64,000 nucleotides of DNA. Origin: Eledone cirrhosa. Lineage: Eukaryota. The translations under genes and the position numbers were made by a program. This document shows, in pieces, positions 16,634 to 57,096 of this stretch. The notes under the pieces were generated by a model. That model ran no database searches. It had not been told where the DNA came from and saw only the letters and a list, made by a program, of their open reading frames with translations. The DNA lies in the NCBI GenBank assembly GCA_964016885.1, contig OZ024758.1, positions 27,528,001 through 27,592,000 of the forward strand, read 5' to 3'. Within the stretch, counting starts at the first letter, position 1; every line of letters starts with the position of its first letter.

Positions 16634-17479
16634 GAGAACAATAATAAAAAAGGCCAACTTATTAAAGTAGATGAATATTGAATATTTAAACAAATCTTTT
16701 AAAATTAAAGTCTAATATTCAATTTATCTATTATATAATTTTAAACAAGTTAATTATTTCTTTGCAGTCCGGTGGTTGGGGACCTCTGCTCTAAAGGCAT
16801 TCCAGCTGTAATCATCTTTCTAAGACTATATTAATTAATAAGTCCTAATTTTAAGAAGGTAGAAGATGATTTGAGGCAGATTTGGCTACTATTTCTAGTA
16901 GACCAAGCAGCTGATAGAGCCTCTCTCACAGTTTAGGTTTGTAACAGGATATAAAATCAGAAATTCCATATTTGTTTTCAAGAGGGAAATGACATAATTA
17001 TGTGTAACATTATCTAAAATGATAGGCATGGCAGTCAGTTACCCCACCAATTAAGTATATCACTAAAAAATGAAGAGTATTTATTTATACACCCAGACCA
17101 CACTGTAAAGTGGTAATGTTGATGATACCAAAAAGCACCCAGTCCACCCTGTAAAGTGGTCATGTTGGTGACACAACAAAACGCACTCAGTCCACACCAG
17201 CTGACCATGTCTTGCCCATACAGAACTGTTTTTGGCTTGGTTGCTATGGCTGGATGCCCTTCCTAATGTCAACCACATTTACAGTGTTGACTGGGTGCTT
17301 TTTGTCACAACACCTACATGACCACTTTAAGACATTTATTTCAAATTTTTTTCAATGATGTAGGAAACAAAATCACCATTTGATCAGCTTCCCAAGAGAA
17401 AAATAAATGATGTGTAATTCAAGGAAAAATACAAGGAATATGATATATTTGGAAGAATTGACTAGAAACAATAACTCAC

Positions 17480-17572
17480 CTTGCAGCTACTATCATTGTA
17501 ACAGTACCACCGATTGTTAGGATTTTTGGCAAATGCTACATAGTGCCCACCACCAAGGATACCAGTATGACA
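17480..17572 (-). CDS. USP32: USP32 His-box exon (last visible exon)
   Basis: ttttAG|TGT; encodes [31 protein letters not shown]|GTGAGT, containing the catalytic His box of USP-family proteases. Confidence 0.95.
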
Positions 17573-19798: not shown

Positions 19799-20470
19799 CA
19801 TTAGTTGTATATAATAATATTAAGTTCTTATATTTTAATGTGTGACCAATAGTGTAAGTTGGTTCCATGTTTCTGGTTAATCATTGGTCTCTAACATTTC
19901 TGCGAGGCTGACAAAAAAGTATCTGTAACTTGAATTTTGTTCAAACAACACCAGTTTTTTTATGATGTTTACATCATTTGCCAATATACATTGGCAAAAT
20001 ATTTAAGCATGTATGCACACACACATATATATATATATATCATCATCACTGTTTTACGTCCGTTCTTCTAGCATGGGTTAGACGGGTTGTCCTGTTGTGG
20101 GCAGTGTCTGGTCGGCTGACCATGCCTTGCTCATACAGGAACTGATTTGGCTAGATTTCTACAGCTGGATGCCCTTCCTAACAGCAACCTCATTTACAGT
20201 GAGTGCTGGGTGCTTTTTCGTGGCGCCTACACGTCCACTTTACAGTGTGGGCTGGGTGCTTTTTCGTGGTGCCTACACGTCCACTTTACAGTGTGGGCTG
20301 GGTGCTTTTTTGCCATGGCACCTCCACAACCACCTTGCAATGGGAGGGTGTGGGGGCATATTGTCTATATATATATATATATATATACAAATAAAATACA
20401 GAGTTACTAACTCATACTGATACCCTGTAATTAACAAGCTCAAAGTATAAACAGTGAGCATTTCAATAAT

Positions 20471-22014: not shown

Positions 22015-22690
22015 TACTGTTAAAATAATTAATATAAAAACTGTTAAAATAATTAATATAAAAACTGTTAAAATAATTAATATAAAAACTGTTAAAATAA
22101 TTAATATAAAAACTGTTAAAATAATTAATATAAAAACTGTTAAAATAATTAATATAAAAACTGTTAAAATAATTAATATAAAAACTGTTAAAATAATTAA
22201 TATAAAAACTGTTAAAATAATTAATATAAAAACTGTTAAAATAATTAATATAAAAACTGTTAAAATAATTAATATAAAAACTGTTAAAATAATTAATATA
22301 AAAACTGTTAAAATAATTAATATAAAAACTGTTAAAATAATTAATATAAAAACTGTTAAAATAATTAATATAAAAACTGTTAAAATAATTAATATAAAAA
22401 CTGTTAAAATAATTAATATAAAAACTGTTAAAATAATTAATATAAAAACTGTTAAAATAATTAATATAAAAACTGTTAAAATAATTAATATAAAAACTGT
22501 TAAAATAATTAATATAAAAACTGTTAAAATAATTAATATAAAAACTGTTAAAATAATTAATATAAAAACTGTTAAAATAATTAATATAAAAACTGTTAAA
22601 ATAATTAATATAAAAACTGTTAAAATAATTAATATAAAAACTGTTAAAATAATTAATATAAAAACTGTTAAAATAATTTATATAAAAACT
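22015..22690. repeat. 24-bp near-perfect minisatellite (about 28 copies)
   Basis: Unit AAAAACTGTTAAAATAATTAATAT. Confidence 0.95.
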
Positions 22691-22704
22691 GAAACACGAC
22701 TTAC

Positions 22705-23032
22705 CTGAAATGGTGCAAGGCTCTATACAATTTTCTACATGATTAGAAACAGGTTCTTTTTGAATGTTGGGAATGGCTGGAAGGGAACTGGAATCATTAG
22801 TAAAATTTGTACTTTCATGGTTAGTGATGCCATTTTTAATTATATTGCGATTGCACTGGTCTTCTTCACTAATATTGGTCAGTTCTATATGATCAGTATT
22901 TATTTTCTTGTACTGTCTGGCACGAGGGGCTATATAAGAACTAGGATCAAAGTCTTTGAATGGAAACTTGACAATTTTATGGGACTTAACCCAGCGCCCA
23001 TTTAAACACTGGAACCGTTTCAAATTTATAAT
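22705..23032 (-). CDS. USP32: USP32 exon
   Basis: ttcctcAG|ATT; encodes IINLKRFQCLNGRWVKSHKIVKFPFKDFDPSSYIAPR.... Ends G|GTAAGT (phase 1). Confidence 0.93.
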
Positions 23033-23249
23033 CTGAGGAATAAAAAGAAAAATTAAAAATTAATTTAAAGCTCATTATTTCTAAAAAATATATTTTTAGA
23101 GTGGTAGCAATAATAAAATACAAGAATCTTAAATAGTTAAAATATTATACAATATTTAACTTATTTCATATTGTCGATGACACTAAAATTTGGTGGACAT
23201 AACTTGATAAAGGATTTGTTCAAATTTGAATTATTAGCTATACAATAAT

Positions 23250-23775
23250 TATTTATACTTTTGGCACAAGGCCAGCAATTACCCAGTACATTACTGGTAC
23301 TTTATTTTATCGACCCCGTAAGGATGAAAGGCAAAGTTAACCTCGGCGGGATTTAGCTATACAATAATGGTTTCTGATTTCAGCAAGAGGCCAACAATTT
23401 TGAGGGAGGGGAAAGTCAATTAAATTGACCCAGTGCATTACTGGTACTTTATTTTATCGATCACATAAGACTGAAAGGCAAAGTTAACTACGATGGAATT
23501 TGAACATAGAATGTAAAGACCAAGTTGCCCGACACTCCACCAATCCTCGGCCCTTTAGTTATACAATAATGATACAAACTATCTTAATAATTGTTTCTAA
23601 TTTTTGGTAAAAGGCCAGCAATTACCCCAGTGCATTACTGGTACTTTATTTTATCAACCCCGTAAGGATGAAAGGCAAAGTTGACCTTGGGAGTTTTTGC
23701 ACTCAGAACGCAAAGGGCCATAACTCTATGCTGCAAAGCATGGTGTCTGACGCTCTACCAGTTACTGCAAATCCT
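23250..23775 (-). mobile_element. Three stacked Nin/Deu-domain SINEs
   Basis: Core motif present three times; TTAG(C/T)TATACAATAAT at 23234, 23353 and 23555. Confidence 0.8.
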
Positions 23776-24002
23776 ATACTAAGATATGATTCAACATAAA
23801 ATAATATATGTATCTATGTTCGATACAACAATTAAAGAACACCATAGTAATTAATGATGTAATTACCTTCAGAAAATTTCATTCTTAAACATTTTCTTAA
23901 AGAAAACAAACAAACATCTATAAAATTGAAACTATTTTTGATCTTTGATGTTGAACATTATGTCATGAAATTAATTCAAAAGAATAAAGTATATTAGCGA
24001 AA

Positions 24003-26930
24003 TGAATCAGTTATATTTCTACTTACTAAAATCGGTAGTAGTCACCAACCAATCAGTTATATTTCTACTTACTAAAATCAGTAGTAGTCACCAATCAATC
24101 AGTTATATTTCTACTTACTAAAATCAGTAATAGTCACCAATCAATCAGTTATATTTCTACTTACTAAAATCGGTGGTAGTCACCAATCAATCAGTTATAT
24201 TTCTACTTACTAAAATCGGTAGTAGTCACCAACCAATCAGTTATATTTCTACTTACTAAAATCAGTAGTAGTCACCAATCAATCAGTTATATTTCTACTT
24301 ACTAAAATCGGTGGTAGTCACCAGTCAATCAGTTATATTTCTACTTACTAAAATCGGTGGTAGTCACCAATCAATCAGTTATATTTCTACTTACTAAAAT
24401 CGGTGGTAGTCACCAATCAATCAGTTATATTTCTACTTACTAAAATCGGTGGTAGTCACCAGTCAATCAGTTATATTTCTACTTACTAAAATCGGTGGTA
24501 GTCACCAATCAATCAGTTATATTTCTACTTACTAAAATCGGTGGTAGTCACCAATCAATCAGTTATATTTCTACTTACTAAAATCGGTGGTAGTCACCAG
24601 TCAATCAGTTATATTTCTACTTACTAAAATCAGTAGTAGTCACCAATCAATCAGTTATATTTCTACTTACTAAAATCAGTAATAGTCACCAATCAATCAG
24701 TTATATTTCTACTTACTAAAATCGGTGGTAGTCACCAATCAATCAGTTATATTTCTACTTACTAAAATCGGTGGTAGTCACCAATCAATCAGTTATATTT
24801 CTACTTACTAAAATCGGTGGTAGTCACCAGTCAATCAGTTATATTTCTACTTACTAAAATCGGTGGTAGTCACCAATCAATCAGTTATATTTCTACTTAC
24901 TAAAATCGGTAGTAGTCACCAGTCAATCAGTTATATTTCTACTTACTAAAATCAGTAGTAGTCACCAGTCAATCAGTTATATTTCTACTTACTAAAATCG
25001 GTAGTAGTCACCAACCAATCAGTTATATTTCTACTTACTAAAATCAGTAGTAGTCACCAACCAATCAGTTATATTTCTACTTACTAAAATCAGTAGTAGT
25101 CACCAACCAATCAGTTACATTTTAACTTACTAAAATCGGTAGTAGTCACCAATCAATCAGTTATATTTCTACTTACTAAAATCAGTAGTAGTCACCAACC
25201 AATCAGTTATATTTCTACTTACTAAAATCAGTAGTAGTCACCAACCAATCAGTTATATTTCTACTTACTAAAATCAGTAGTAGTCACCAACCAATCAGTT
25301 ACATTTTAACTTACTAAAATCAGTAGTAGTCACCAATCAATCAGTTATATTTCTACTTACTAAAATCGGTAGTAGTCACCAATCAATCAGTTATATTTCT
25401 ACTTACTAAAATCAGTAGTAGTCACCAATCAATCAGTTATATTTCTACTTACTAAAATCGGTAGTAGTCACCAATCAATCAGTTATATTTCTACTTACTA
25501 AAATCAGTAGTAGTCACCAATCAATCAGTTATATTTCTACTTACTAAAATCGGTAGTAGTCACCAATCAATCAGTTATATTTCTACTTACTAAAATCAGT
25601 AGTAGTCACCAATCAATCAGTTATATTTCTACTTACTAAAATCAGTGGTAGTCACCAGTCAATCAGTTATATTTCTACTTACTAAAATCAGTAGTAGTCA
25701 CCAATCAATCAGTTATATTTCTACTTACTAAAATCAGTGGTAGTCACCAGTCAATCAGTTATATTTCTACTTACTAAAATCAGTAGTAGTCACCAACCAA
25801 TAAGTTATATTTCTACTTACTAAAATCAGTAGTAGTCACCAAGCAATCAGTTATATTTCTACTTACTAAAATCGGTGGTAGTCACCAACCAATCAGTTAC
25901 ATTTTAACTTACTAAAATCAGTAGTAGTCACCAACCAATCAGTTATATTTCTACTTACTAAAATCAGTGATAGTCACCAACCAATCAGTTACATTTTAAC
26001 TTACTAAAATCAGTAGTAGTCACCAATCAATCAGTTATATTTCTACTTACTAAAATCGGTGGTAGTCACCAATCAATCAGTTATATTTCTACTTACTAAA
26101 ATCGGTGGTAGTCACCAATCAATCAGTTATATTTCTACTTACTAAAATTGGTAGTAGTCACCAATCAATCAGTTATATTTCTACTTACTAAAATCGGTGG
26201 TAGTCACCAATCAATGTTATATTTCTACTTACTAAAATCGGTGGTAGTCACCAATGAATCAGTTATATTTCTACTTACTAAAATCAGTATTAGTCACCAA
26301 TCAATCAGTTATATTTCTACTTACTAAAATCGGTGGTAGTCACCAATCAATCAGTTATATTTCTACTTACTAAAATCGGTGGTAGTCACCAATGAATCAG
26401 TTATATTTCTACTTACTAAAATCAGTATTAGTCACCAATCAATGTTAAATTTCTACTTACTAAAATCGGTGGTAGTCACCAACCAATCAGTTATATTTCT
26501 TCTTACTAAAATTAGTATTAGTCACCAATCAATGTTATATTTCTACTTACTAAAATCGGTGGTAGTCACCAATCAATGTTATATTTCTACTTACTAAAAT
26601 CGGTGGTAGTCACCAATCAATGTTATATTTCTACTTACTAAAATCAGTATTAGTCACCAATCAATCAGTTATATTTCTACTTACTAAAATCAGTAAAGTC
26701 ACCAATCAATCAGTTATATTTCTACTTACTAAAATCGGTGGTAGTCACCAATCAATCAGTTATATTTCTACTTACTAAAATCAGTAATAGTCACCAATCA
26801 ATCAGTTATATTTCTACTTACTAAAATCGGTGGTAGTCACCAATCAATCAGTTATATTTCTACTTACTAAAATCGGTAGTAGTCACCAATCAATCAGTTA
26901 TATTTCTACTTACTAAAATCGGTGGTAGTC
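24003..26930. repeat. 46-bp minisatellite (about 63 copies) containing exon end and 5' splice site
   Basis: Unit ATCAGTTATATTTCTACTTACTAAAATCGGTGGTAGTCACCAATCA overlaps the exon boundary at 26914. Confidence 0.95.
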
Positions 26931-27105
26931 GCCAAATGTCAAGCTTTTTTGATGCTAAACAGTGTTTATTGCATTTGGAGCAGAAATAAAGTTCATCTTC
27001 GCCAAGCTCTTCTTCTTTAGTAAATGCTTGAAGGCACGTGTCAAGATCAATGGGTTCTGTTTGTAGTCTGCGACTTTCCTCTACACTACGATGCTCTTGA
27101 ATAAA
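26914..27105 (-). CDS. USP32: USP32 exon (not in ORF track)
   Basis: cctattAG|TTT; encodes FIQEHRSVEESRRLQTEPIDLDTCLQAFTKEEELGEDELYFCSKCNKHCLASKKLDIWRLPPIL|GTAAGT. 192 nt, phase 0/0. Confidence 0.94.
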
Positions 27106-27359: not shown

Positions 27360-27840
27360 TTAAACTAATTTATCTACCAGCCTGCTTGTGATTCCACAAA
27401 CCTTCTTGTACATTCAAAGAGTACACTGGATATACCATATGGAATTTTTACCTACTCCTTTTCTGCATATAGAGCATGGCCAGTATAATGATGGGAGCAG
27501 GGCCCTGTCATCATTTGGTCTTTGTTACATTTATTTTGATGTCTTCTGGTTCTAGGTTTTGCTTCAAAGCATGGAATTTCTTCCCTAATTCTTCTACAGA
27601 TTCAGCTATAAGAACTAAGTCATCAGTATACAGGAGCTTCCACAGACAGCCAGTCTTAAATTTTTCTGTTATGGCCTCAGAGACTATAATAAACAGGAGG
27701 GGGCTGAGAACTGAGTCTTCGAGGACCTTTACCTGCACACTAAATTTGTTGCTGAACTCATTAACTTTCACCTTGTTGACTGCACCACTGTACGTGGCTT
27801 GCACAGCCCTCACAAATCATCCATCTACTTCTTGTTTCCT
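27360..27840 (-). mobile_element. RTE LINE reverse-transcriptase fragment
   Basis: SVLSPLLFIIVSEAIT...WKLLYTDDLVLIAES...INVTKTK. Confidence 0.85.
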
Positions 27841-28249: not shown

Positions 28250-28370
28250 CTTCTCATTACTAGTTTGGTATCGAAGATGCAAAGCTGTAGGTTCCCAGTC
28301 AATAGCCACAAAAGAGCTACCAAAGTTAAATACATTTGTATTGCAATCTATTACACAGCCTCGGCAGAAC
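28250..28370 (-). CDS. USP32: USP32 exon (not in ORF track)
   Basis: ttcttacAG|G; encodes (K)FCRGCVIDCNTNVFNFGSSFVAIDWEPTALHLRYQTSNEK|GTAAG. Confidence 0.93.
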
Positions 28371-28979
28371 CTGTAAGAAAAAGAATATCTATTGACAATA
28401 TGAACAGCAAATGTTCAAACAAAATCATTCAACAATATTTAAAATAATAATCAAAATACAAACAAGTTTACAGTGAAACATTATTTACAAGGAATCAGTA
28501 TTCAGTTAATTTGTGATTTGAAATAATTAGAAAAATTTATGCAGTTTGAAAAGTTGAAATCTTGCATGCATCAATTTCAACTTTTCTTATCAATAACTAC
28601 ATTGTTTCTTTCCAGGGATTATGGTGAAAAATAAACCTCATTTGGTCATTCCATGAGAGTATCTTGGTCAGCCTATGAACTTTTCAGCTGACCTGTAGAG
28701 TTAAATTCTAATCATTAACACAAACTTACAAGATTTGATTCTGAATGTTTAAAACAAAAAATTGATGATCTAATGATAATTCAATAAGAACTGGCTAGTA
28801 GATTTGGTTTGTATTTTGTCATCACTACTGCAGCAAGTATAATGAAGGCTATGATTCACTGATGAGACCAGAATAAGACTGAAGCATATCCTATGCTATC
28901 TCTCGTACTTGTCAGAAGAGTGAAAAATATTAGTCATTGACTAATTATTATTTTTCTCCCTGCATAATTATTTTAAGTT

Positions 28980-41571: not shown

Positions 41572-42110
41572 AACACTGTAAAGTGGTTATGAAGGTGTCA
41601 CGACAAAAAGCACCCAGCACACACTGTAAAGTGGTCGTGTAAGTGTCACAACAAAAAGCACCCAGCCCACACTGTAAAGTGGTCGTGTAGGTGTCACAAC
41701 AAAAAGCACCCAGCCCACACTGTAAAGTGGTCGTGTAAGTGTCACAACAAAAAGCACCCAGCCCACACTGTAAAGTGGTGGTGTAGGTGTCACAACAAAA
41801 AGCACCCAGCCCATACTGTAAAGTGGTTATGTAGGTGTCACAACAAAAAGCACCCAGCCCACACTGTAAAGTGGTCGTGTAAGTGTCACAACAAAAAGCA
41901 CCCAGCCCACACTGTAAAGTGGTTATGTAGGTGTCACAACAAAAAGCACCCAGCACACACTGTAAAGTGGTCGTGGAAGTGTCACGACAAAAAGCACCCA
42001 GCCCACACTGTAAAGTGGTCGTGTAAGTGTCACAACAAAAAGCACCCAGCCCACACTGTAAAGTGGTCGTGTAAGTGTCACAACAAAAAGCACCCAGCCC
42101 ACAATGTAAA
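41572..42110. repeat. 48-bp minisatellite (about 11 copies) within an RTE-tailed repeat
   Basis: Unit CACACTGTAAAGTGGTCGTGTAAGTGTCACAACAAAAAGCACCCAGCC. Confidence 0.9.
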
Positions 42111-44021: not shown

Positions 44022-47000
44022 TTAGTGGAGAGAATAACTGGATATAGTGGTATTTAGTGGAGAGAGTAACTGGATGTAGTGGTATTTAGTGGAGAGAGTA
44101 ACTGGATGTAGTGGTATTTAGTGGAGAGAGTAACTAGATATAGTGGTATTTAGTGGAGAGAGTAACTGGATGTAGTGGTATTTAGTGGAGAGAGTAACTA
44201 GATATAGTGGTATTTAGTGGAGAGAGTAACTAGATGTAGTGGTATTTAGTGGAGAGAGTAACTGGATGTAGTGGTATTTAGTGGAGAGAGTAACTGGATG
44301 TAGTGGTATTTAGTGGAGAGAGTAACTAGATATAGTGGTATTTAGTAGAGAGAGTAACTGGATATAGTGGTATTTAGTGGAGAGAGTAACTAGATGTAGT
44401 GGTATTTAGTAGAGAGAGTAACTGGATATAGTGGTATTTAGTGGAGAGAGTAACTAGATGTAGTGGTATTTAGTGGAGAGAGTAACTAGATGTAGTGGTA
44501 TTTAGTGGAGAGAGTAACTGGATGTAGTGGTATTTAGTGGAGAGAGTAACTGGATGTAGTGGTATTTAGTGGAGAGAGTAACTAGATATAGTGGTATTTA
44601 GTGGAGAGAGTAACTAGATGTAGTGGTATTTAGTGGAGAGAGTAACTAGATATAGTGGTATTTAGTGGAGGGAGTAACTAGATATAGTGGTATTTAGTGG
44701 AGAGAGTAACTGGATGTAGTGGTATTTAGTGGAGAGAGTAACTGGATATAGTGGTATTTAGTAGAGAGAGTAACTGGATATAGTGGTATTTAGTAGAGAG
44801 AGTAACTGGATATAGTGGTATTTAGTAGAGAGAGTAACTAGATGTAGTGGTATTTAGTAGAGAGAGTAACTGGATGTAGTGGTATTTAGTGGAGAGAGTA
44901 ACTAGATGTAGTGGTATTTAGTAGAGAGAGTAACTGGATGTAGTGGTATTTAGTGGAGAGAGTAACTAGATGTAGTGGTATTTAGTAGAGAGAGTAACTA
45001 GATGTAGTGGTATTTAGTGGAGAGAGTAACTGGATGTAGTGGTATTTAGTGGAGAGAGTAACTAGATGTAGTGGTATTTAGTAGAGAGAGTAACTGGATG
45101 TAGTGGTATTTAGTGGAGAGAGTAACTAGATGTAGTGGTATTTAGTAGAGAGTGTAACTGGATGTAGTGGTATTTAGTGGAGAGAGTAACTAGATGTAGT
45201 GGTATTTAGTGGAGAGAGTAACTAGATGTAGTGGTATTTAGTGGAGAGTAACTAGATGTAGTGGTATTTAGTGGAGAGTAACTAGATGTAGTGGTATTTA
45301 GTAGAGAGAGTAACTAGATGTAATGGTATTTAGTGGAGAGTAACTAGTTGTAGTGGTATTTAGTAGAGAGAGTAACTGGATGTAGTGGTATTTAGTAGAG
45401 AGAGTAACTAGATGTAGTGGTATTTAGTGGAGAGAGTAACTAGATGTAGTGGTATTTAGTGGAGAGTAACTAGATGTAGTGGTATTTAGTGGAGAGAGTA
45501 ACTAGATGTAGTGGTATTTAGTGGAGAGTAACTAGATGTAGTGGTATTTAGTGGAGAGTAACTAAATGTAGTGGTATTTAGTAGAGAGAGTAACTAGATG
45601 TAGTGGTATTTAGTGGAGAGTAACTAGATGTAGTGGTATTTAGTAGAGAGGGTAACTGGATGTAGTGGTATTTAGTGGAGAGAGTAACTAGATGTAGTGG
45701 TATTTAGTGGAGAGAGTAACTGGATGTAGTGGTATTTAGTAGAGAGAGTAACTGGATGTAGTGGTATTTAGTGGAGAGAGTAACTAGATGTAGTGGTATT
45801 TAGTGGAGAGAGTAACTAAATGTAGTGGTATTTAGTGGAGAGAGTAACTGGATGTAGTGGTATTTAGTGGAGAGAGTAACTAAATGTAGTGGTATTTAGT
45901 GGAGAGAGTAACTAGATGTAGTGGTATTTAGTGGAGAGAGTAACTGGATGTAGTGGTATTTAGTGGAGAGAGTAGCTAGATGTAGTGGTATTTAGTAGAG
46001 AGAGTAACTAGATGTAGTGGTATTTAGTGGAGAGTAACTAGATGTAGTGGTATTTAGTGGAGAGTAACTAGATGTAGTGGTATTTAGTGGAGAGTAACTA
46101 GATGTAGTGGTATTTAGTGGAGAGAGTAACTAGATGTAGTGGTATTTAGTGGAGAGAGTAACTAGATGTAGTGGTATTTAGTGGAGAGAGTAACTAGATG
46201 TAGTGGTATTTAGTAGAGAGAGTAACTAGATGTAGTGGTATTTAGTGGAGAGAGTAACTAGATGTAGTGGTATTTAGTAGAGAGTAACTAGATGTAGTGG
46301 TATTTAGTAGAGAGAGTAGCTAGATGTAGTGGTATTTAGTGGAGAGAGTAACTGGATGTAGTGGTATTTAGTAGAGAGTAACTAGATGTAGTGGTATTTA
46401 GTAGAGAGAGTAACTGGATATAGTGGTATTTAGTAGAGAGAGTAACTGGATGTAGTGGTATTTAGTAGAGAGAGAGTAGCTAGATGTAGTGGTATTTAGT
46501 AGAGAGAGTAACTAGATGTAGTGGTATTTAGTGGAGAGAGTAACTAGATGTAGTGGTATTTAGTGGAGAGAGTAACTAGATGTAGTGGTATTTAATGGAG
46601 AGAGTAACTGGATGTAGTGGTATTTAGTGGAGAGAGTAACTAGATGTAGTGGTATTTAGTAGAGAGAGTAACTAGATGTAGTGGTATTTAGTAGAGAGAG
46701 TAACTAGATGTAGTGGTATTTAGTAGAGAGAGTAACTGGATGTAGTGGTATTTAGTGGAGAGTAACTAGATGTAGTGGTATTTAGTAGAGAGAGTAACTA
46801 GATGTAGTGGTATTTAGTAGAGAGAGTAACTGGATGTAGTGGTATTTAGTGGAGAGTAACTAGATGTAGTGGTATTTAGTGGAGAGTAACTGGATGTAGT
46901 GGTATTTAGTAGAGAGAGTAACTAGATGTAGTGGTATTTAGTAGAGAGAGTAACTGGATGTAGTGGTATTTAGTGGATAGTAACTAGAGGTAGTGGTATT

Positions 47001-50000
47001 TAGTGGAAAGAGTAACTAGATGTAGTGGTATTTAGTAGAGAGAGTAACTGGATGTAGTGGTATTTAGTGGAGAGTAACTGGATGTAGTGGTATTTAGTAG
47101 AGAGAGTAGCTAGATGTAGTGGTATTTAGTAGAGAGAGTAACTGGATGTAGTGGTATTTAGTGGAGAGTAACTGGATGTAGTGGTATTTAGTAGAGAGAG
47201 TAGCTAGATGTAGTGGTATTTAGTAGAGAGAGTAGCTAGATGTAGTGGTATTTAGTAGAGAGAGTAACTAGATGTAGTGGTATTTAGTGGAGAGTAACTA
47301 GATGTAGTGGTATTTAGTGGAGAGTAACTAGATGTAGTGGTATTTAGTAGAGAGAGTAACTAGATGTAATGGTATTTAGTGGAGAGTAACTAGTTGTAGT
47401 GGTATTTAGTAGAGAGAGTAACTGGATGTAGTGGTATTTAGTAGAGAGAGTAACTAGATGTAGTGGTATTTAGTGGAGAGAGTAACTAGATGTAGTGGTA
47501 TTTAGTGGAGAGTAACTAGATGTAGTGGTATTTAGTGGAGAGAGTAACTAGATGTAGTGGTATTTAGTGGAGAGTAACTAGATGTAGTGGTATTTAGTGG
47601 AGAGTAACTAAATGTAGTGGTATTTAGTAGAGAGAGTAACTAGATGTAGTGGTATTTAGTGGAGAGTAACTAGATGTAGTGGTATTTAGTAGAGAGGGTA
47701 ACTGGATGTAGTGGTATTTAGTGGAGAGAGTAACTAGATGTAGTGGTATTTAGTGGAGAGAGTAACTGGATGTAGTGGTATTTAGTAGAGAGAGTAACTG
47801 GATGTAGTGGTATTTAGTGGAGAGAGTAACTAGATGTAGTGGTATTTAGTGGAGAGAGTAACTAAATGTAGTGGTATTTAGTGGAGAGAGTAACTGGATG
47901 TAGTGGTATTTAGTGGAGAGAGTAACTAAATGTAGTGGTATTTAGTGGAGAGAGTAACTAGATGTAGTGGTATTTAGTGGAGAGAGTAACTGGATGTAGT
48001 GGTATTTAGTGGAGAGAGTAGCTAGATGTAGTGGTATTTAGTAGAGAGAGTAACTAGATGTAGTGGTATTTAGTGGAGAGTAACTAGATGTAGTGGTATT
48101 TAGTGGAGAGTAACTAGATGTAGTGGTATTTAGTGGAGAGTAACTAGATGTAGTGGTATTTAGTGGAGAGAGTAACTAGATGTAGTGGTATTTAGTGGAG
48201 AGAGTAACTAGATGTAGTGGTATTTAGTGGAGAGAGTAACTAGATGTAGTGGTATTTAGTAGAGAGAGTAACTAGATGTAGTGGTATTTAGTGGAGAGAG
48301 TAACTAGATGTAGTGGTATTTAGTAGAGAGTAACTAGATGTAGTGGTATTTAGTAGAGAGAGTAGCTAGATGTAGTGGTATTTATTGGAGAGAGTAACTG
48401 GATGTAGTGGTATTTAGTAGAGAGTAACTAGATGTAGTGGTATTTAGTAGAGAGAGTAACTGGATGTAGTGGTATTTAGTAGAGAGAGAGTAGCTAGATG
48501 TAGTGGTATTTAGTAGAGAGAGTAACTAGATGTAGTGGTATTTAGTGGAGAGAGTAACTAGATGTAGTGGTATTTAGTGGAGAGAGTAACTAGATGTAGT
48601 GGTATTTAATGGAGAGAGTAACTGGATGTAGTGGTATTTAGTGGAGAGAGTAACTAGATGTAGTGGTATTTAGTAGAGAGAGTAACTAGATGTAGTGGTA
48701 TTTAGTAGAGAGAGTAACTAGATGTAGTGGTATTTAGTAGAGAGAGTAACTGGATGTAGTGGTATTTAGTGGAGAGTAACTAGATGTAGTGGTATTTAGT
48801 AGAGAGAGTAACTAGATGTAGTGGTATTTAGTAGAGAGAGTAACTGGATGTAGTGGTATTTAGTGGAGAGTAACTAGATGTAGTGGTATTTAGTGGAGAG
48901 TAACTGGATGTAGTGGTATTTAGTAGAGAGAGTAACTAGATGTAGTGGTATTTAGTAGAGAGAGTAACTGGATGTAGTGGTATTTAGTGGATAGTAACTA
49001 GAGGTAGTGGTATTTAGTGGAAAGAGTAACTAGATGTAGTGGTATTTAGTAGAGAGAGTAACTGGATGTAGTGGTATTTAGTAGAGAGAGTAACTAGATG
49101 TTGTGGTATTTAGTGGAGAGTAACTGGATATAGTGGTATTTAGTGGAGAGTAGCTAGATGTAGTGGTATTTAGTGGAGAGAGTAACTAGATGTAGTGGTA
49201 TTTAGTAGAGAGAGTAACTAGATGTAGTGGTATTTAGTGGAGAGAGTAACTGGATGTAGTGGTATTTAGTAGAGAGAGAGTAACTAGTTGTAGTGGTATT
49301 TAGTGGAGAGAGTAACTAGATGTAGTGGTATTTAGTGGAGAGAGTAACTAGATGTAGTGGTATTTAGTGGAGAGAGTAACTGGATGTAGTGGTATTTAGT
49401 GGAGAGAGTAACTGGATGTAGTGGTATTTAGTGGAGAGAGTAACTAGATGTAGTGGTATTTAGTAGAGAGAGTAACTAAATGTAGTGGTATTTAGTGGAG
49501 AGTAACTAGATGTAGTGGTATTTAGTAGAGAGAGTAACTAGATGTAATGGTATTTAGTGGAGAGTAACTAGTTGTAGTGGTATTTAGTAGAGAGATTAAC
49601 TAGATATAGTGGTATTTAGTGGAGAGAGTAACTGGATGTAGTGGTATTTAGTAGAGAGAGTAACTGGATGTAGTGGTATTTAGTAGAGAGAGTAACTAGA
49701 TGTAGTGGTATTTAGTGGAGAGTAACTAGATGTAGTGGTATTTAGTGGAGAGTAACTAGATGTAGTGGTATTTAGTGGAGAGAGTAACTAGATGTAGTTG
49801 TATTCAGTGGAGAGAGTAACTGGATATAGTGGTATTTAGTGGAGAGAGTAACTAGATGTAGTGGTATTTAGTAGAGAGAGTAACTAGATGTAGTGGTATT
49901 TAGTGGAGAGTAACTAGATGTAGTGGTATTTAGTGGAGAGTAACTAGATGTAGTGGTATTTAGTAGAGAGAGTAACTAGATGTAATGGTATTTAGTGGAG

Positions 50001-53000
50001 AGTAACTAGTTGTAGTGGTATTTAGTAGAGAGATTAACTGGATGTAGTGGTATTTAGTAGAGAGAGTAACTAGATGTAGTGGTATTTAGTGGAGAGAGTA
50101 ACTAGATGTAGTGGTATTTAGTGGAGAGTAACTAGATGTAGTGGTATTTAGTGGAGAGAGTAACTAGATGTAGTGGTATTTAGTGGAGAGTAACTAGATG
50201 TAGTGGTATTTAGTGGAGAGTAACTAAATGTAGTGGTATTTAGTAGAGAGAGTAACTAGATGTAGTGGTATTTAGTGGAGAGGGTAACTGGTTGTAGTGG
50301 TATTTAGTGGAGAGAGTAACTAGCTGTGGTGGTATTTAGTGGAGAGAGTAACTGGATGTAGTGGTATTTAGTAGAGAGAGTAACTGGATGTAGTGGTATT
50401 TAGTGGAGAGAGTAACTAGATGTAGTGGTATTTAGTGGAGAGAGTAACTAAATGTAGTGGTATTTAGTGGAGAGAGTAACTGGATGTAGTGGTATTTAGT
50501 GGAGAGAGTAACTAGATGTAGTGGTATTTAGTGGAGAGTAACTAGATGTAGTGGTATTTAGTGGAGAGTAACTAGATGTAGTGGTATTTAGTGGAGAGAG
50601 TAACTAGATGTAGTGGTATTTAGTGGAGAGAGTAACTGGATGTAGTGGTATTTAGTGGAGAGAGTAACTGGATGTAGTGGTATTTAGTGGAGAGAGTAAC
50701 TAAATGTAGTGGTATTTAGTGGAGAGAGTAACTAGATGTAGTGGTATTTAGTGGAGAGAGTAACTGGATGTAGTGGTATTTAGTGGAGAGAGTAACTGGA
50801 TGTAGTGGTATTTAGTGGAGAGAGTAGCTAGATGTAGTGGTATTTAGTAGAGAGAGTAACTAGATGTAGTGGTATTTAGTGGAGAGTAACTAGATGTAGT
50901 GGTATTTAGTGGAGAGTAACTAGATGTAGTGGTATTTAGTGGAGAGTAACTAGATGTAGTGGTATTTAGTAGAGAGAGTAACTAGTTGTAGTGGTATTTA
51001 GTGGAGAGAGTAACTAGATGTAGTGGTATTTAGTGGAGAGAGTAACTAGATGTAGTGGTATTTAGTGGAGAGAGTAACTAGATGTAGTGGTATTTAGTAG
51101 AGAGAGTAACTGGATGTAGTGGTATTTAGTAGAGAGAGTAGCTAGATGTAGTGGTATTTAGTAGAGAGAGTAACTAGATGTAGTGGTATTTAGTGGAGAG
51201 AGTAACTAGATGTAGTGGTATTTAGTGGAGAGAGTAACTAGATGTAGTGGTATTTAGTGGAGAGAGTAACTAGATGTAGTGGTATTTAGTGGAGAGAGTA
51301 ACTGGATGTAGTGGTATTTAGTAGAGAGAGTAACTAGATCTAGTGGTATTTAGTAGAGAGAGTAACTGGATATAGTGGTATTTAGTAGAGAGAGTAGCTA
51401 GATGTAGTGGTATTTAGTGGAGAGAGTAACTGGATGTAGTGGTATTTAGTAGAGAGAGTAACTAGATGTAGTGGTATTTAGTAGAGAGAGTAGCTAGATG
51501 TAGTGGTATTTAGTAGAGAGAGTAGCTAGATGTAGTGGTATTTAGTGGAGAGAGTAACTGGATGTAGTGGTATTTAGTAGAGAGAGTAACTAGATGTAGT
51601 GGTATTTAGTAGAGAGAGTAGCTAGATGTAGTGGTATTTAGTGGAGAGAGAGTAACTGGATGTAGTGGTATTTAGTAGAGAGAGTAACTAGATGTAGTGG
51701 TATTTAGTAGAGTGAGTAGCTAGATGTAGTGGTATTTAGTGGAGAGAGTAACTGGATGTAGTGGTATTTAGTAGAGAGAGTAACTAGATGTAGTGGTATT
51801 TAGTAGAGAGAGTAACTGGATATAGTGGTATTTAGTAGAGAGAGTAACTGGATGTAGTGGTATTTAGTAGAGAGAGAGTAGCTAGATGTAGTGGTATTTA
51901 GTGGAGAGAGTAACTAGATGTAGTGGTATTTAGTGGAGAGAGTAACTAGATGTAGTGGTATTTAGTGGAGAGAGTAACTGGATGTAGTGGTATTTAGTGG
52001 AGAGAGTAACTGGATGTAGTGGTATTTAGTGGAGAGAGTAACTAGATGTAGTGGTATTTAGTAGAGAGAGTAACTAGATGTAGTGGTATTTAGTAGAGAG
52101 AGTAACTAGATGTAGTGGTATTTAGTGGAGAGAGTAACTAGATGTAGTGGTATTTAGTGGAGAGAGAGTAACTGGATGTAGTGGTATTTAGTAGAGAGAG
52201 TAACTAGATATAGTGGTATTTAGTTGAGAGAGTAACTGGATGTAGTGGTATTTAGTAGAGAGTAACTAGATGTAGTGGTATTTAGTGGAGAGTAACTAGA
52301 TGTAGTGGTATTTAGTGGAGAGAGTAACTAGATGTAGTGGTATTTAGTAGAGAGAGTAACTGGATGTAGTGGTATTTAGTGGAGAGTAACTAGAGGTAGT
52401 GGTATTTAGTGGAAAGAGTAACTAGATGTAGTGGTATTTAGTGGAGAGTAACTAGATGTAGTGGTATTTAGTAGAGAGAGTAACTGGATGTAGTGGTATT
52501 TAGTAGAGAGAGTAGCTAGATGTAGTGGTATTTAGTAGAGAGAGTAACTGGATGTAGTGGTATTTAGTAGAGAGAGAGTAGCTAGATGTAGTGGTATTTA
52601 GTAGAGAGAGTAACTAGATGTAGTGGTATTTAGTGGAGAGAGTAACTAGATGTAGTGGTATTTAGTGGAGAGAGTAACTAGATGTAGTGGTATTTAGTGG
52701 AGAGAGTAACTAGATGTAGTGGTATTTAGTGGAGAGAGTAACTAGATGTAGTGGTATTTAGTGGAGAGTAACTGGATGTAGTGGTATTTAGTAGAGAGAG
52801 TAACTAGATGTAGTGGTATTTAGTGGAGAGAGTAACTAGATGTAGTGGTATTTAGTGGAGAGTAATTGGATGTAGTGGTATTTAGTGGAGAGAGTAACTA
52901 GATGTAGTGGTATTTAGTAGAGAGAGTAACTAGATGTAGTGGTATTTAGTAGAGAGAGTAACTAGATGTAGTGGTATTTAGTAGAGAGAGTAACTGGATG

Positions 53001-55203
53001 TAGTGGTATTTAGTGGAGAGTAACTAGATGTAGTGGTATTTAGTAGAGAGAGTAACTAGATGTAGTGGTATTTGGTAGAGAGAGTAACTGAATGTAGTGG
53101 TATTTAGTGGAGAGTAACTAGATGTAGTGGTATTTAGTGGAGAGTAACTGGATGTAGTGGTATTTAGTAGAGAGAGTAACTAGATGTAGTGGTATTTAGT
53201 AGAGAGAGTAACTAGATGTAGTGGTATTTAGTAGAGAGAGTAACTAGATGTAGTGGTATTTAGTGGAGAGTAACTGGATGTAGTGGTATTTAGTAGAGAG
53301 AGTAGCTAGATGTAGTGGTATTTAGTGGAGAGAGTAACTGGATGTAGTGGTATTTAGTGGAGAGAGTAACTAGATGTAGTGGTATTTAGTAGAGAGAGTA
53401 GCTAGATGTAGTGGTATTTAGTAGAGAGAGTAACTAGATGTAGTGGTATTTAGTGGAGAGAGAGTAACTGGATGTAGTGGTATTTAGTAGAGAGAGTAAC
53501 TAGATATAGTGGTATTTAGTGGAGAGAGTAACTGGATGTAGTGGTATTTAGTAGAGAGTAACTAGATGTAGTGGTATTTAGTGGAGAGTAACTAGATGTA
53601 GTGGTATTTAGTGGAGAGAGTAACTAGATGTAGTGGTATTTAGTAGAGAGAGTAACTAGATATAGTGGTATTTAGTGGAGAGAGTAACTGGATGTAGTGG
53701 TATTTAGTAGAGAGAGTAACTGGATGTAGTGGTATTTAGTAGAGAGAGTAACTAGATGGTATTTAGTGGAGAGAGAGTAACTGGGTGTAGTGGTATTTAG
53801 TAGAGAGAGTAACTAGATATAGTGGTATTTAGTGGAGAGAGTAACTGGATGTAGTGGTATTTAGTAGAGAGAGTAACTAGATGTAGTGGTATTTAGTGGA
53901 GAGTAACTGGATATAGTGGTATTTAGTGGAGAGTAACTGGATGTAGTGGTATTTAGTGGAGAGAATAACTGGATATAGTGGTATTTAGTGGAGAGTAACT
54001 GGATGTAGTGGTATTTAATGGAGAGAGTACCTAGATGTAGTGATATTTAGTAGAGAGTAACTGGATGTAGCGGTATTTAGTAGAGAGAGTAACTAGATGT
54101 AGTGGTATTTAGTAGAGAGAGTAACTAGATGTAGTGGTATTTAGTAGAGAGAGTAACTAGATGTAGTGGTATTTAGTGGAGAGAGTAACTAGATGTAGTG
54201 GTATTTAGTGGAGAGAGTAACTAGATGTAGTGGTATTTAGTGGAGAGAGTAACTGGATGTAGTGGTATTTAGTAGAGAGTAACTGGATGTAGTGGTATTT
54301 AGTAGAGAGTAACTGGATGTAGTGGTATTTAGTAGAGAGTAACTGGATGTAGTGGTATTTAGTAGAGAGTAACTGGATGTAGTGGTATTCAGTAGAGAGT
54401 AACTAGATGTAGTGGTATTTAGTGGAGAGAGTAACTGGATGTAGTGGTATTTAGTAGAGAGTAACTAGATGTAGTGGTATTTAGTGGAGAGAGTAACTAG
54501 ATATAGTGGTATTTAGTGGAGAGAGTAACTGGATGTAGTGGTATTTAGTGGAGAGAGTAACTAGATGTGGTATTTAGTAGAGAGAGTAACTAGATGTAGT
54601 GGTATTTAGTGGAGAGAGTAACTAGATGTAGTGGTATTTAGTAGAGAGAGTAACTAGATGTAGTGGTATTTAGTAGAGAGAGTAACTAGATGTAGTGGTA
54701 TTTAGTGGAGAGAGTAACTAGATGTAGTGGTATTTAGTGGAGAGAGTAACTAGATGTAGTGGTATTTAGTGGAGAGAGTAACTAGATGTAGTGGTATTTA
54801 GTAGAGAGAGTAACTAGATGTAGTGGTATTTAGTGGAGAGAGTAACTGGATGTAGTGGTATTTAGTGGAGAGAGTAACTGGATGTAGTGGTATTTAGTGG
54901 AGAGAGTAACTGGATGTAGTGGTATTTAGTGGAGAGAGTAACTGGATGTAGTGGTATTTAGTGGAGAGAGTAACTAGATGTAGTGGTATTTAGTGGAGAG
55001 AGTAACTGGATGTAGTGGTATTTAGTGGAGAGAGTAACTGGATGTAGTGGTATTTAGTGGAGAGAGTAACTAGATGTAGTGGTATTTAGTGGAGAGTAAC
55101 TAGATGTAGTGGTATTTAGTGGAGAGAGTAACTGGATGTAGTGGTATTTAGTGGAGAGAGTAACTAGATGTAGTGGTATTTAGTGGAGAGAGTAACTAGA
55201 TGT
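44022..55203. repeat. About 11.2-kb intronic satellite, 30/32/34-bp unit
   Basis: Unit GTAGTGGTATTTAGT(G/A)GAGAG(AG)TAACT(G/A)GAT, roughly 350 copies. Confidence 0.97.
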
Positions 55204-56339
55204 TCCAAAAAGACAACAATTTATTGCAAGTCTCTGACTTGATGTGAATGAAACAGAAACTCAATCAAGTAATGAGTTAAGATAATGGTGGAATGGTATG
55301 ATAACTAAAGGATAAGTTATAAGGCTTGAAAGAAATAGGGAAAAAGAAGGTATATAGAGGTAAAACTAAAAGTTAGACATCTGGTTTCCTGAACATGAAG
55401 GCTAGCATGGAACAACGGGCGTAAAATGATGATGAAGATGACAATGATGATGGTGGTGATGATGATGATGAGAAAGAAGCATATCTAAAGTGATATAGAC
55501 ATACAGGTATGCAGTAATAAGGATAAAGTGCAGATGTGTCATTATGTGAAGCTGCAGAACAATGAATATGATATGCGTCCATGACCAGTTAAAGAATCAA
55601 CAACAGAGATCAATGAATGAGGAGACAGTTATTAACCCTGTTAATAACATGTGAAAAGTTACAGGACATGATTAGTAAAGAAATTTCAGCGATAATATTT
55701 ATTAATATGTATAAAGGAAATGCCAGTGGAATGAAGTTGCAGCGGAGGAAGACCAAGAAATATCTGGACAGTGGTGGTTAGAACTAATCACCATAGTCTG
55801 AATCTTGCAGAAGAGATGAGAAAAGGCTGTTGCATGTAGATAGAAGAAGGCTGTGCTGGAAAGGACCCATCCAACCCATGCAAGCATGGAAAAGCAGACA
55901 TGCAATGATGATGATTATTATAAAGAATAATTTCAATGTAAAGAATATTTTTTGTTTCTAAATTAAAATGTAGAAGACTATTAGGAAATAAAGTTTCAAA
56001 TATAAAATTTAATCCCAAAGAGAAGAAACCAGAACATTTTTCTCTGAAAGTTCCTTAAACTCTAAAGAAGGGAATTTTAAGTCCTGAAATATTAGGACAA
56101 AAGAAACAACAAAAAGACAAAACAAAGATAACCAGGTAACTTACTTTTTCGTTACATTCATCTTATCGTCCATTTTGTATTGTTTAGCCATATATCACTT
56201 TCAACATTATCTATCATATATTATACAATGCTTCAAGCAAACTACATTTTATTATTGAAATAAAAGGAGATAACTCGTCCTGATATGTTTGAACTCGTTT
56301 CCAACACTTCATAACTTCAAAGCTAGATGGGGTTACTAG

Positions 56340-57096
56340 TTTGTTGATGTGACATTTTATAGTTTATTGATGTGACATTTTATAGTTTATTGATGTGACA
56401 TTTTATAGTTTATTGATGTGACATTTTATAATTTATTGATGTGACATTTTATAGTTTATTGATGTGACATTTTATAGTTTATTGATGTGACATTTTATAG
56501 TTTATTGATGTGACATTTTATAGTTTATTGACATGACATTTTATAGTTTATTGATGTGACATTTTATAGTTTATTGACATGACATTTTATAGTTTATTGA
56601 TGTGACATTTTATAGTTTATTGATGTGACATTTTATAGTTTATTGATGTGACATTTTATAGTTTATTGATGTGACATTTTATAGTTTATTGATGTGACAT
56701 TTTATAGTTTATTGATGTTACATTTTATAGTTTATTGATGTGACATTTTATAGTTTATTGACATGACATTTTATAGTTTATTGATGTGACATTTTATAGT
56801 TTATTGATGTGACATTTTATAGTTTATTGATGTGACATTTTATAGTTTATTGATGTGACATTTTATAGTTTATTGATGTGACATTTTATAGTTTATTGAT
56901 GTGACATTTTATAGTTTATTGATGTGACATTTTATAGTTTATTGATGTGACATTTTATAGTTTATTGATGTGACATTTTATAGTTTATTGATGTGACATT
57001 TTATAGTTTATTGATGTGACATTTTATAGTTTATTGACGTGACATTTTATAGTTTATTGATGTGACATTTTATAGTTTATTGATGTGACATTTTAC
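56340..57096. repeat. 23-bp minisatellite (about 33 copies) inside a MITE
   Basis: Unit TTTATTGATGTGACATTTTATAG; flanks match the reverse complement of 31718-31875. Confidence 0.93.

What the first reader, a model, noticed from the sequence alone, without database searches (positions are those of the whole stretch)
24003..26930. Minisatellite made of an exon end plus 5' splice site: about 63 tandem decoy donors
On the transcribed strand the exon ends TGG CGA CTA CCA CCG ATT TTA|GTAAGTAG. The 46-nt unit repeats TGGTGACTAC(C/T)AC(C/T)GATTTTA|GTAAGTAGAAATATAACTGATTGAT for about 2.9 kb, so nearly every copy has a donor with the same local context as the real one. Any downstream donor adds GTA AGT AGA AAT ATA ACT GAT TGA, an in-frame stop upstream of the His box. 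Only the first donor yields enzyme; the others would give NMD substrates. The exon's CGA is TGA in the copies. Inference: this is a natural test of first-come donor choice, a possible U1 snRNP sponge, or a copy-number-dependent expression rheostat.
Basis: partly seen in the sequence, partly recalled or inferred. Interest (0 to 1): 0.75.

Follow-up and report, generated by a model that had tools for sequence, protein, structure and literature searches.

The report
Splice-donor minisatellite in octopod USP32 intron
A 46-base piece spanning the end of one exon and its splice signal in an octopus-type animal's USP32 gene has been copied 63 more times into the intron, but the one spliced transcript found uses the original signal, and this kind of repeat is already described in several human and lancelet genes, so it is most likely an ordinary by-product of a repeat-rich genome.

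Summary
On the minus strand, an octopod USP32 exon ends at 26914 and is followed by 63 tandem 44-46-nt copies of its last ~21 nt plus donor; 62 keep TTA|GTAAGT. Any later donor brings in a stop (26892-26890) ahead of the His box. One transcript-like contig of the same species joins 26914 to 23032 (donor 1), and no other join was listed; contigs drop rare forms. In a related species the intron is about 489 nt with no array, so the array is lineage-specific. The class is known: human F7 intron 7 (first donor only, no effect of 1-12 copies), IFI6, CBS, LMNB2, PDGFA, ABCA7 (up to ~427 units) and lancelet 'mirages'. Straddling arrays are not enriched here: 0 at 310 sampled kinase exon edges (1.6 expected). 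The donor motif is not significantly better conserved than the rest of the unit, and predicted folding does not single out donor 1. The scan noted the same kind before, in this genome (ECM29, NEDD4, fasciclin) and in shark, mussel, urchin and annelid DNA. Verdict: new member of a known kind, probably neutral; the sponge and rheostat ideas are unsupported and untested.

The parts
26914..27105 (-). USP32 coding exon (FIQEH...RLPPIL) inside the split UCH catalytic domain; its last ~21 nt seeded the repeat
   Evidence: transcript-like contig of X4 matches it with 0 differences and stops at 26914
26908..26916 (-). Authentic 5' splice site TTA|GTAAGT (phase 0), of middling strength: rank 13 of 31 USP32 donors
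24001..26935 (-). 46-nt minisatellite, 64 units counting the exon-overlapping first one; 63 pseudo-donors at 26868...24027
26890..26892 (-). In-frame TGA that every downstream donor would include, also the weak TTG|GTGACT site at 26887
23033..24026 (-). Rest of the intron after the last pseudo-donor, 994 nt, the inferred length before expansion; ends in the real acceptor
22705..23032 (-). Next USP32 exon (IINLKRF...), joined to 26914 in the transcript-like contig
28250..28370 (-). Preceding USP32 exon, joined to 27105 in the same contig
17480..17572 (-). USP32 His-box exon ([14 protein letters not shown]...), lost from the protein if any pseudo-donor is used

Best explanation
This is a lineage-specific intronic minisatellite whose first unit straddles a USP32 5' splice site, and it is likely neutral: the spliced contig found uses donor 1, and the 63 copies are probably ignored. 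Shown: the anatomy, the stop, the donor-1 junction, and a relative's short intron without the array. Inferred origin: a 46-nt tandem duplication across the exon end, near a shared CATT on both sides; a C-to-T change at a CpG (CGA to TGA) in the founding copy; then expansion by ordinary minisatellite turnover. Inferred mechanism of choice, by analogy with human F7: donor 1 is transcribed first and is paired across a 192-nt exon with the upstream acceptor, so it is committed before the later copies can compete. A small leak to donors 2-3, as in IFI6, CBS and ABCA7, would be removed by NMD, which would keep the array's cost low.
For: X4 contig (4873 nt): record 479-806 = 22705-23032 and 807-998 = 26914-27105, and its loose end at 23032 carries the exon's CGA version; it was the only X4 record laid on the acceptor stretch. 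X9 (organism B, DNA) contig (4412 nt) puts the exon end at record 1126 and the next exon at 1616, an intron of about 489 nt whose similarity ends 7 nt past the donor. Base rate: 63 minisatellites in 600 kb around kinase exons and 24 within USP32; chance predicts 0.47 straddling arrays at 60 USP32 junctions (1 seen, this one) and 1.56 at 310 kinase exon edges (0 seen). Donor core invariance is not unusual: P = 0.20 for GTAAG, and P = 0.33 for some invariant run of 11. Precedent: in F7 only the first donor is used, and 1-12 monomers made no difference (PMC1557585); mirages do not disturb splicing (PMC3087553, PMC3902484).
Against: The RNA evidence is one contig from one run that is not on record as RNA; contigs drop rare forms and NMD would hide them, so leak is not measured. 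The specific 11-nt window around the donor (-6..+5) is fully invariant, with nominal P = 0.02 before allowing for choice of window. The array is predicted to lower the accessibility of donor 1's -3..+2 bases from 0.63 to about 0.1, so it may not be entirely inert. The F7 result is mammalian and covers at most 12 copies. The organism C run was inconclusive: its contig covers the downstream exon but no record was laid on the upstream exon.
Confidence: 0.8

Rival explanations
1. Leaky but unselected: donors 2-3 are used at a measurable rate, giving NMD substrates that trim USP32 output by a few per cent regardless of array length.
For: The copies score the same as the real donor and their predicted accessibility is similar. 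IFI6 and CBS use two further pseudo-sites (as cited in PMC1557585); ABCA7 retains one unit and makes a PTC isoform that rises with cycloheximide (PMC5954066).
Against: No alternative contig at the acceptor in X4, which is weak evidence; F7, LMNB2 and PDGFA use only the first site.
Confidence: 0.12
2. Copy-number rheostat: array length tunes USP32 level through leak, slowed splicing or exon skipping, and is functionally relevant.
For: ABCA7 VNTR length correlates with lower expression and more skipping of the next exon (PMC5954066, passages). The array is predicted to pair with donor 1's -3..+2 bases.
Against: F7 copy number had no effect. The ABCA7 effect was not through NMD. The array is absent in organism B, and there is no significant selection signal on the donor core.
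Confidence: 0.05
3. U1 snRNP sponge or telescripting aid: the 63 sites bind U1 and act in trans, or shield the intron from early polyadenylation.
For: 62 copies carry the full GTAAGT complement to the U1 5' end.
Against: One locus adds tens of sites per nascent transcript against a U1 pool of order 10^5-10^6 per cell (recalled), and the gene has 77 equally good GT sites elsewhere. The relative does without it.
Confidence: 0.02
4. Recursive-splicing or poison-exon cassette built from the TTTTAG in each unit.
For: Each unit has an AG next to the donor and a CTGAT branch-like motif 27 nt upstream (sequence); an included piece would begin with TAA.
Against: AG and GT share one G, so cutting at the AG leaves no donor (not AG|GT). 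These AG sites score -17.5 to +1.9 (median -13.8), while 28 of 31 real acceptors score 3.8 or more.
Confidence: 0.01

Closest known systems
Human F7 intron 7 37-bp VNTR (Borensztajn et al. 2006, PMC1557585; read parts 1-4 of 6: abstract, introduction, results, start of discussion)
   Same: First monomer spans the exon-intron boundary; identical pseudo-donors follow; the first site is used.
   Different: Here 63 copies against 4-8, about 21 nt of exon per unit against 4, a mollusc, and every alternative donor hits a stop. The silence of the copies is not measured here.
Human IFI6 (6-16), CBS intron 13, LMNB2 and PDGFA donor-reiterating minisatellites (seen only as described in the introduction and reference list of PMC1557585; originals not read)
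   Same: Same architecture, 10-26 units.
   Different: IFI6 and CBS use two extra proximal sites; whether that happens here is unknown.
ABCA7 intron 18 25-bp VNTR (De Roeck et al. 2018, PMC5954066; passages)
   Same: Units start at the donor GT; one-unit retention gives a PTC isoform; alleles of about 12-427 units, so longer than this array.
   Different: ABCA7 units hold no exon sequence; length variation and an expression link are shown there and untested here.
Amphioxus 'mirages' in Adh3, globins BflGb6/BflGb9, troponin C and PGBD5 (PMC3087553, PMC3902484; passages)
   Same: Invertebrate tandem duplications of exon-intron boundaries that do not disturb normal splicing.
   Different: The globin and PGBD5 arrays have few units (3-6 in BflGb6). 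Mirages were suggested to be a general lancelet trait, whereas no excess over chance was seen in this genome (0 of 310 edges).

Membership tests
Donor-reiterating minisatellite (F7/IFI6/CBS type; 'mirage') | First unit spans an authentic exon-intron boundary | tested here: met
   Array begins at 26935 inside the exon; donor at 26914
Donor-reiterating minisatellite (F7/IFI6/CBS type; 'mirage') | Head-to-tail copies repeat the donor inside the intron | tested here: met
   63 of 63 copies keep GTAAG; 62 keep TTA|GTAAGT
Donor-reiterating minisatellite (F7/IFI6/CBS type; 'mirage') | Normal mRNA is spliced at the most upstream donor | tested here: met
   One X4 contig joins 26914 to 23032; shows presence only
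Donor-reiterating minisatellite (F7/IFI6/CBS type; 'mirage') | Pseudo-sites silent, or only the nearest ones used | tested here: inconclusive
   No alternative contig listed, but contigs drop rare forms; no raw RNA reads were offered
Donor-reiterating minisatellite (F7/IFI6/CBS type; 'mirage') | Length polymorphism among alleles (VNTR) | not testable with these tools
   One assembly; no long reads of other individuals
Recursive splice site (ratchet point) | Abutting AG|GT with a strong polypyrimidine tract | tested here: not met
   AG and GT overlap by one G; acceptor scores -17.5 to +1.9
Intron gain by tandem duplication (Rogers model, as described in PMC3087553) | The duplicated segment creates a new intron | tested here: not met
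   The intron exists at the same place without the array in organism B

The most novel reading that the evidence does not exclude
The array is a length-variable dial on USP32: longer alleles divert more transcripts to stop-containing donors, or slow donor 1 by pairing with it. It would be one of a genome-wide set of octopod arrays born preferentially just inside intron 5' ends (9 of 59 start within 120 nt of an exon end, 2.3 expected), making these animals a natural dose series for co-transcriptional donor choice.
Probability: 0.06. Interest if true: 0.5.

Novelty: new member of a known kind. Interest (0 to 1): 0.15.

Why it matters
Little on its own. It extends a known mammalian and lancelet oddity to a cephalopod and is consistent with first-donor preference holding against 63 equal competitors in a conserved gene. 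It could serve as a ready-made minigene for measuring donor-choice fidelity at high copy number, but longer arrays are already in print (ABCA7) and noted by this scan (ECM29, unchecked). The side result, that minisatellites here seem to start close behind donors, may deserve a genome-wide look.

Tried and rejected
1) RNA hairpin masking. Strand folding gave z = -4.9 for 261 nt, but with the proper null (shuffle one unit, then repeat it) z = +0.17. Mean unpaired probability over -3..+8 at 37 C is 0.36-0.41 for donor 1 and 0.36-0.38 for the median copy, so structure does not pick donor 1. The DNA-parameter fold was not obtained (timed out; one search was RNA only). 2) Selection to keep the donors: not significant. 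3) Excess of straddling arrays in this genome: none, 0 of 310. The sample was 60 hand-picked 10-kb regions around short-exon hits out of 138 kinase matches; edges are HMM edges, and some weak hits may not be exons. 4) Recursive or poison-exon reading: rejected on acceptor scores. 5) Raw RNA reads: no RNA holder was listed, so junction counts could not be made; reads were laid only on the two flanks, not across the array. 6) Organism C (X7): inconclusive. 7) Turri et al. 1995 was not held. Searches for an octopus or cephalopod report of such arrays, for recent human biobank cases and for donor-proximal enrichment (listing only) found nothing directly relevant; this covers the held library only. 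PMC10078293 passages added nothing. No supplements were read. 8) One search was translated out of frame and not used; (alignment summary) added nothing.

Full report
Observation. The minus strand carries a 46-nt tandem array at 24001-26935 (64.0 copies, 94% matches). It holds 64 TTTTA|GTAAG sites, at 26914 and then every 44-46 nt to 24027; 62 of the 63 copies read TTA|GTAAGT and one TTA|GTAAGA. The 63 units fall into 23 distinct sequences, with a mean of 2.4 differences per 46 nt among the 57 full-length units and variants clustered in blocks. All copies carry TGA for the exon's CGA, and the second CpG is lost in 27 of the 57 full-length units, as expected of CpG decay (inference). A genome search with 151 nt of the array returned one candidate region, this one. 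Summed contig depth in DNA run X1 is about 250 on the array and 6.7-7.6 on unique flanks, so the repeat is in the reads; X1 may be the assembly's source.

Gene. The exon is 98% identical to Octopus vulgaris USP32 (P0003). P0003 maps to 32 exons over the window and the next 93 kb, of which 31 were used for scoring. Its UCH domain spans residues 764-1598, and this phase-0 intron falls at about residue 1365, before the His-box exon at 17572-17480. Reading past donor 1 gives VSRNITD and a stop at 26892-26890, which every later donor would include. Further exon junctions lie well downstream, so such transcripts are predicted NMD targets (established rule; not tested in this animal).

Which donor is used. 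Run X4 (same species label; not on record as RNA, but with no cover on unique intron stretches) has a 4873-nt contig whose positions 479-806, 807-998 and 999-1124 map to 22705-23032, 26914-27105 and 28250-28375. I take these as one contig because length, depth and strand agree in both calls. Its loose end at 23032 is the true exon end with CGA, so donor 1 is used. It was the only X4 record on the acceptor stretch. A 122-nt, depth-2.2 X4 contig of array sequence was not seen joined to the acceptor. Contigs drop rare forms, so this shows the main form only. No raw RNA run was offered.

Age. In DNA run X9 (organism B; 6 differences over 205 nt at this exon and 30 over 352 nt at the next), one 4412-nt contig aligns at 27111-26907 and 23052-22701, which gives an intron of about 489 nt, with similarity ending 7 nt past the donor. 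Here the intron is 3881 nt, or 994 without the expansion. The simplest reading is a gain in this lineage; with one informative relative and no outgroup, loss in B is not excluded. Organism C was inconclusive.

Is it more than chance? Minisatellites are dense here: 24 arrays within USP32 and 63 in 600 kb around kinase exons. Placing their founding units at random predicts 0.47 straddling arrays at the 60 USP32 junctions (1 seen, the ascertained one) and 1.56 at 310 kinase exon-hit edges (0 seen; the 19 array-edge cases within 210 nt were inspected by eye). A rate of 0.5-0.8% per junction, or even a few times less, would give many such arrays in a 3-Gb animal genome (inference). The scan's own unchecked notes list three more in this genome and seven in other animals. 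The 155 kinase hits are HMM edges from 60 hand-picked regions, so this is a rough estimate.

Signs of function. Twelve of 46 positions vary; invariance of GTAAG has P = 0.20, of the -6..+5 window a nominal P = 0.02, and of some 11-nt run P = 0.33. The donor ranks 13th of 31 in a matrix built from this gene's donors, and 77 GT sites outside the array score as well, about a dozen of them real donors. The AG sites in the unit are poor acceptors and do not form AG|GT. A hairpin joining the exon end to the next unit is predicted, but the unit folds no better than shuffled units repeated the same way (z = +0.17), and donor 1 and the copies have similar predicted accessibility. The one hint of an effect is that donor 1's -3..+2 bases fall from 0.63 unpaired without the array to about 0.1 with it, in the lowest quarter of the gene's other 30 donors.

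Mechanism. Shown: anatomy, stop, donor-1 junction, short intron in a relative. Inferred: birth by a 46-nt duplication across the junction, growth by ordinary minisatellite turnover, and tolerance because the first-transcribed, exon-defined donor wins while any leak is degraded. I put about 0.8 on this, 0.12 on measurable unselected leak, 0.05 on a length-dependent rheostat and 0.03 on the sponge and recursive readings together.

Comparison. Borensztajn et al. 2006 (PMC1557585; parts 1-4 of 6 read) describe the same architecture in human F7 intron 7. They show that the most upstream functional donor is chosen, that the next one takes over if it is mutated, and that 1-12 monomers make no difference; they list IFI6, CBS, LMNB2 and PDGFA as further cases (originals not read; one search failed). 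Lancelet mirages are the invertebrate precedent (PMC3087553, PMC3902484; passages). ABCA7 (PMC5954066; passages) has up to about 427 units, one-unit retention with a PTC, and a length-expression link that is not through NMD. I found the F7 paper, before opening the scan's notes; the mirage papers were a lead from those notes. No cephalopod report turned up (held library only).

Verdict. Real, correctly described, a new member of a known kind, and most likely neutral. Interest 0.15.

Noticed in passing
L056-L115 (60 kinase regions) and USP32 introns (window 22016-22691 and 56337-57095; 87147-87918 in the window extended by L006-L025): Minisatellites start shortly behind exon ends more often than chance: 9 of 59 within 120 nt against 2.3 expected (Poisson P = 7e-4; P = 0.0007-0.035 over 12 settings). 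The acceptor side shows a weaker excess (3 of 58 against 2.2 at 120 nt; 7 against 3.8 at 210 nt). In USP32, three other arrays begin 14, 98 and 106 nt below a donor. Edges are approximate, the sample is small and the test was post hoc.
   Followed up: partly
window 22016-22691: A 24-nt array of 28 near-identical units begins 14 nt behind the next donor (22705); on the transcribed strand each unit ends in an A/T-rich run and AG, loosely acceptor-like. The X4 contig's loose end at 22705 reads into the next exon's coding sequence, consistent with normal splicing.
   Followed up: partly
window 44022-55203: An 11.2-kb array of a 32-nt unit (354 copies, GC skew about 0.83) in the 19-kb intron of USP32.
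   Followed up: no
window 41573-42110, 17090-17197, 20193-20310 and many fetched loci: A dispersed family of 46-50-nt tandem units with a shared core recurs at many unrelated loci, probably derived from an interspersed repeat.
   Followed up: no
window 27430-27840: The upstream intron holds a decayed, multi-copy element, heavily covered by contigs of all four runs; it looks like a reverse-transcriptase fragment (recalled motifs, not tested).
   Followed up: no
window 11958-15580: About 3.5 kb of (AT)n-type simple repeat containing the window's only gap (200 N, 13175-13374).
   Followed up: no
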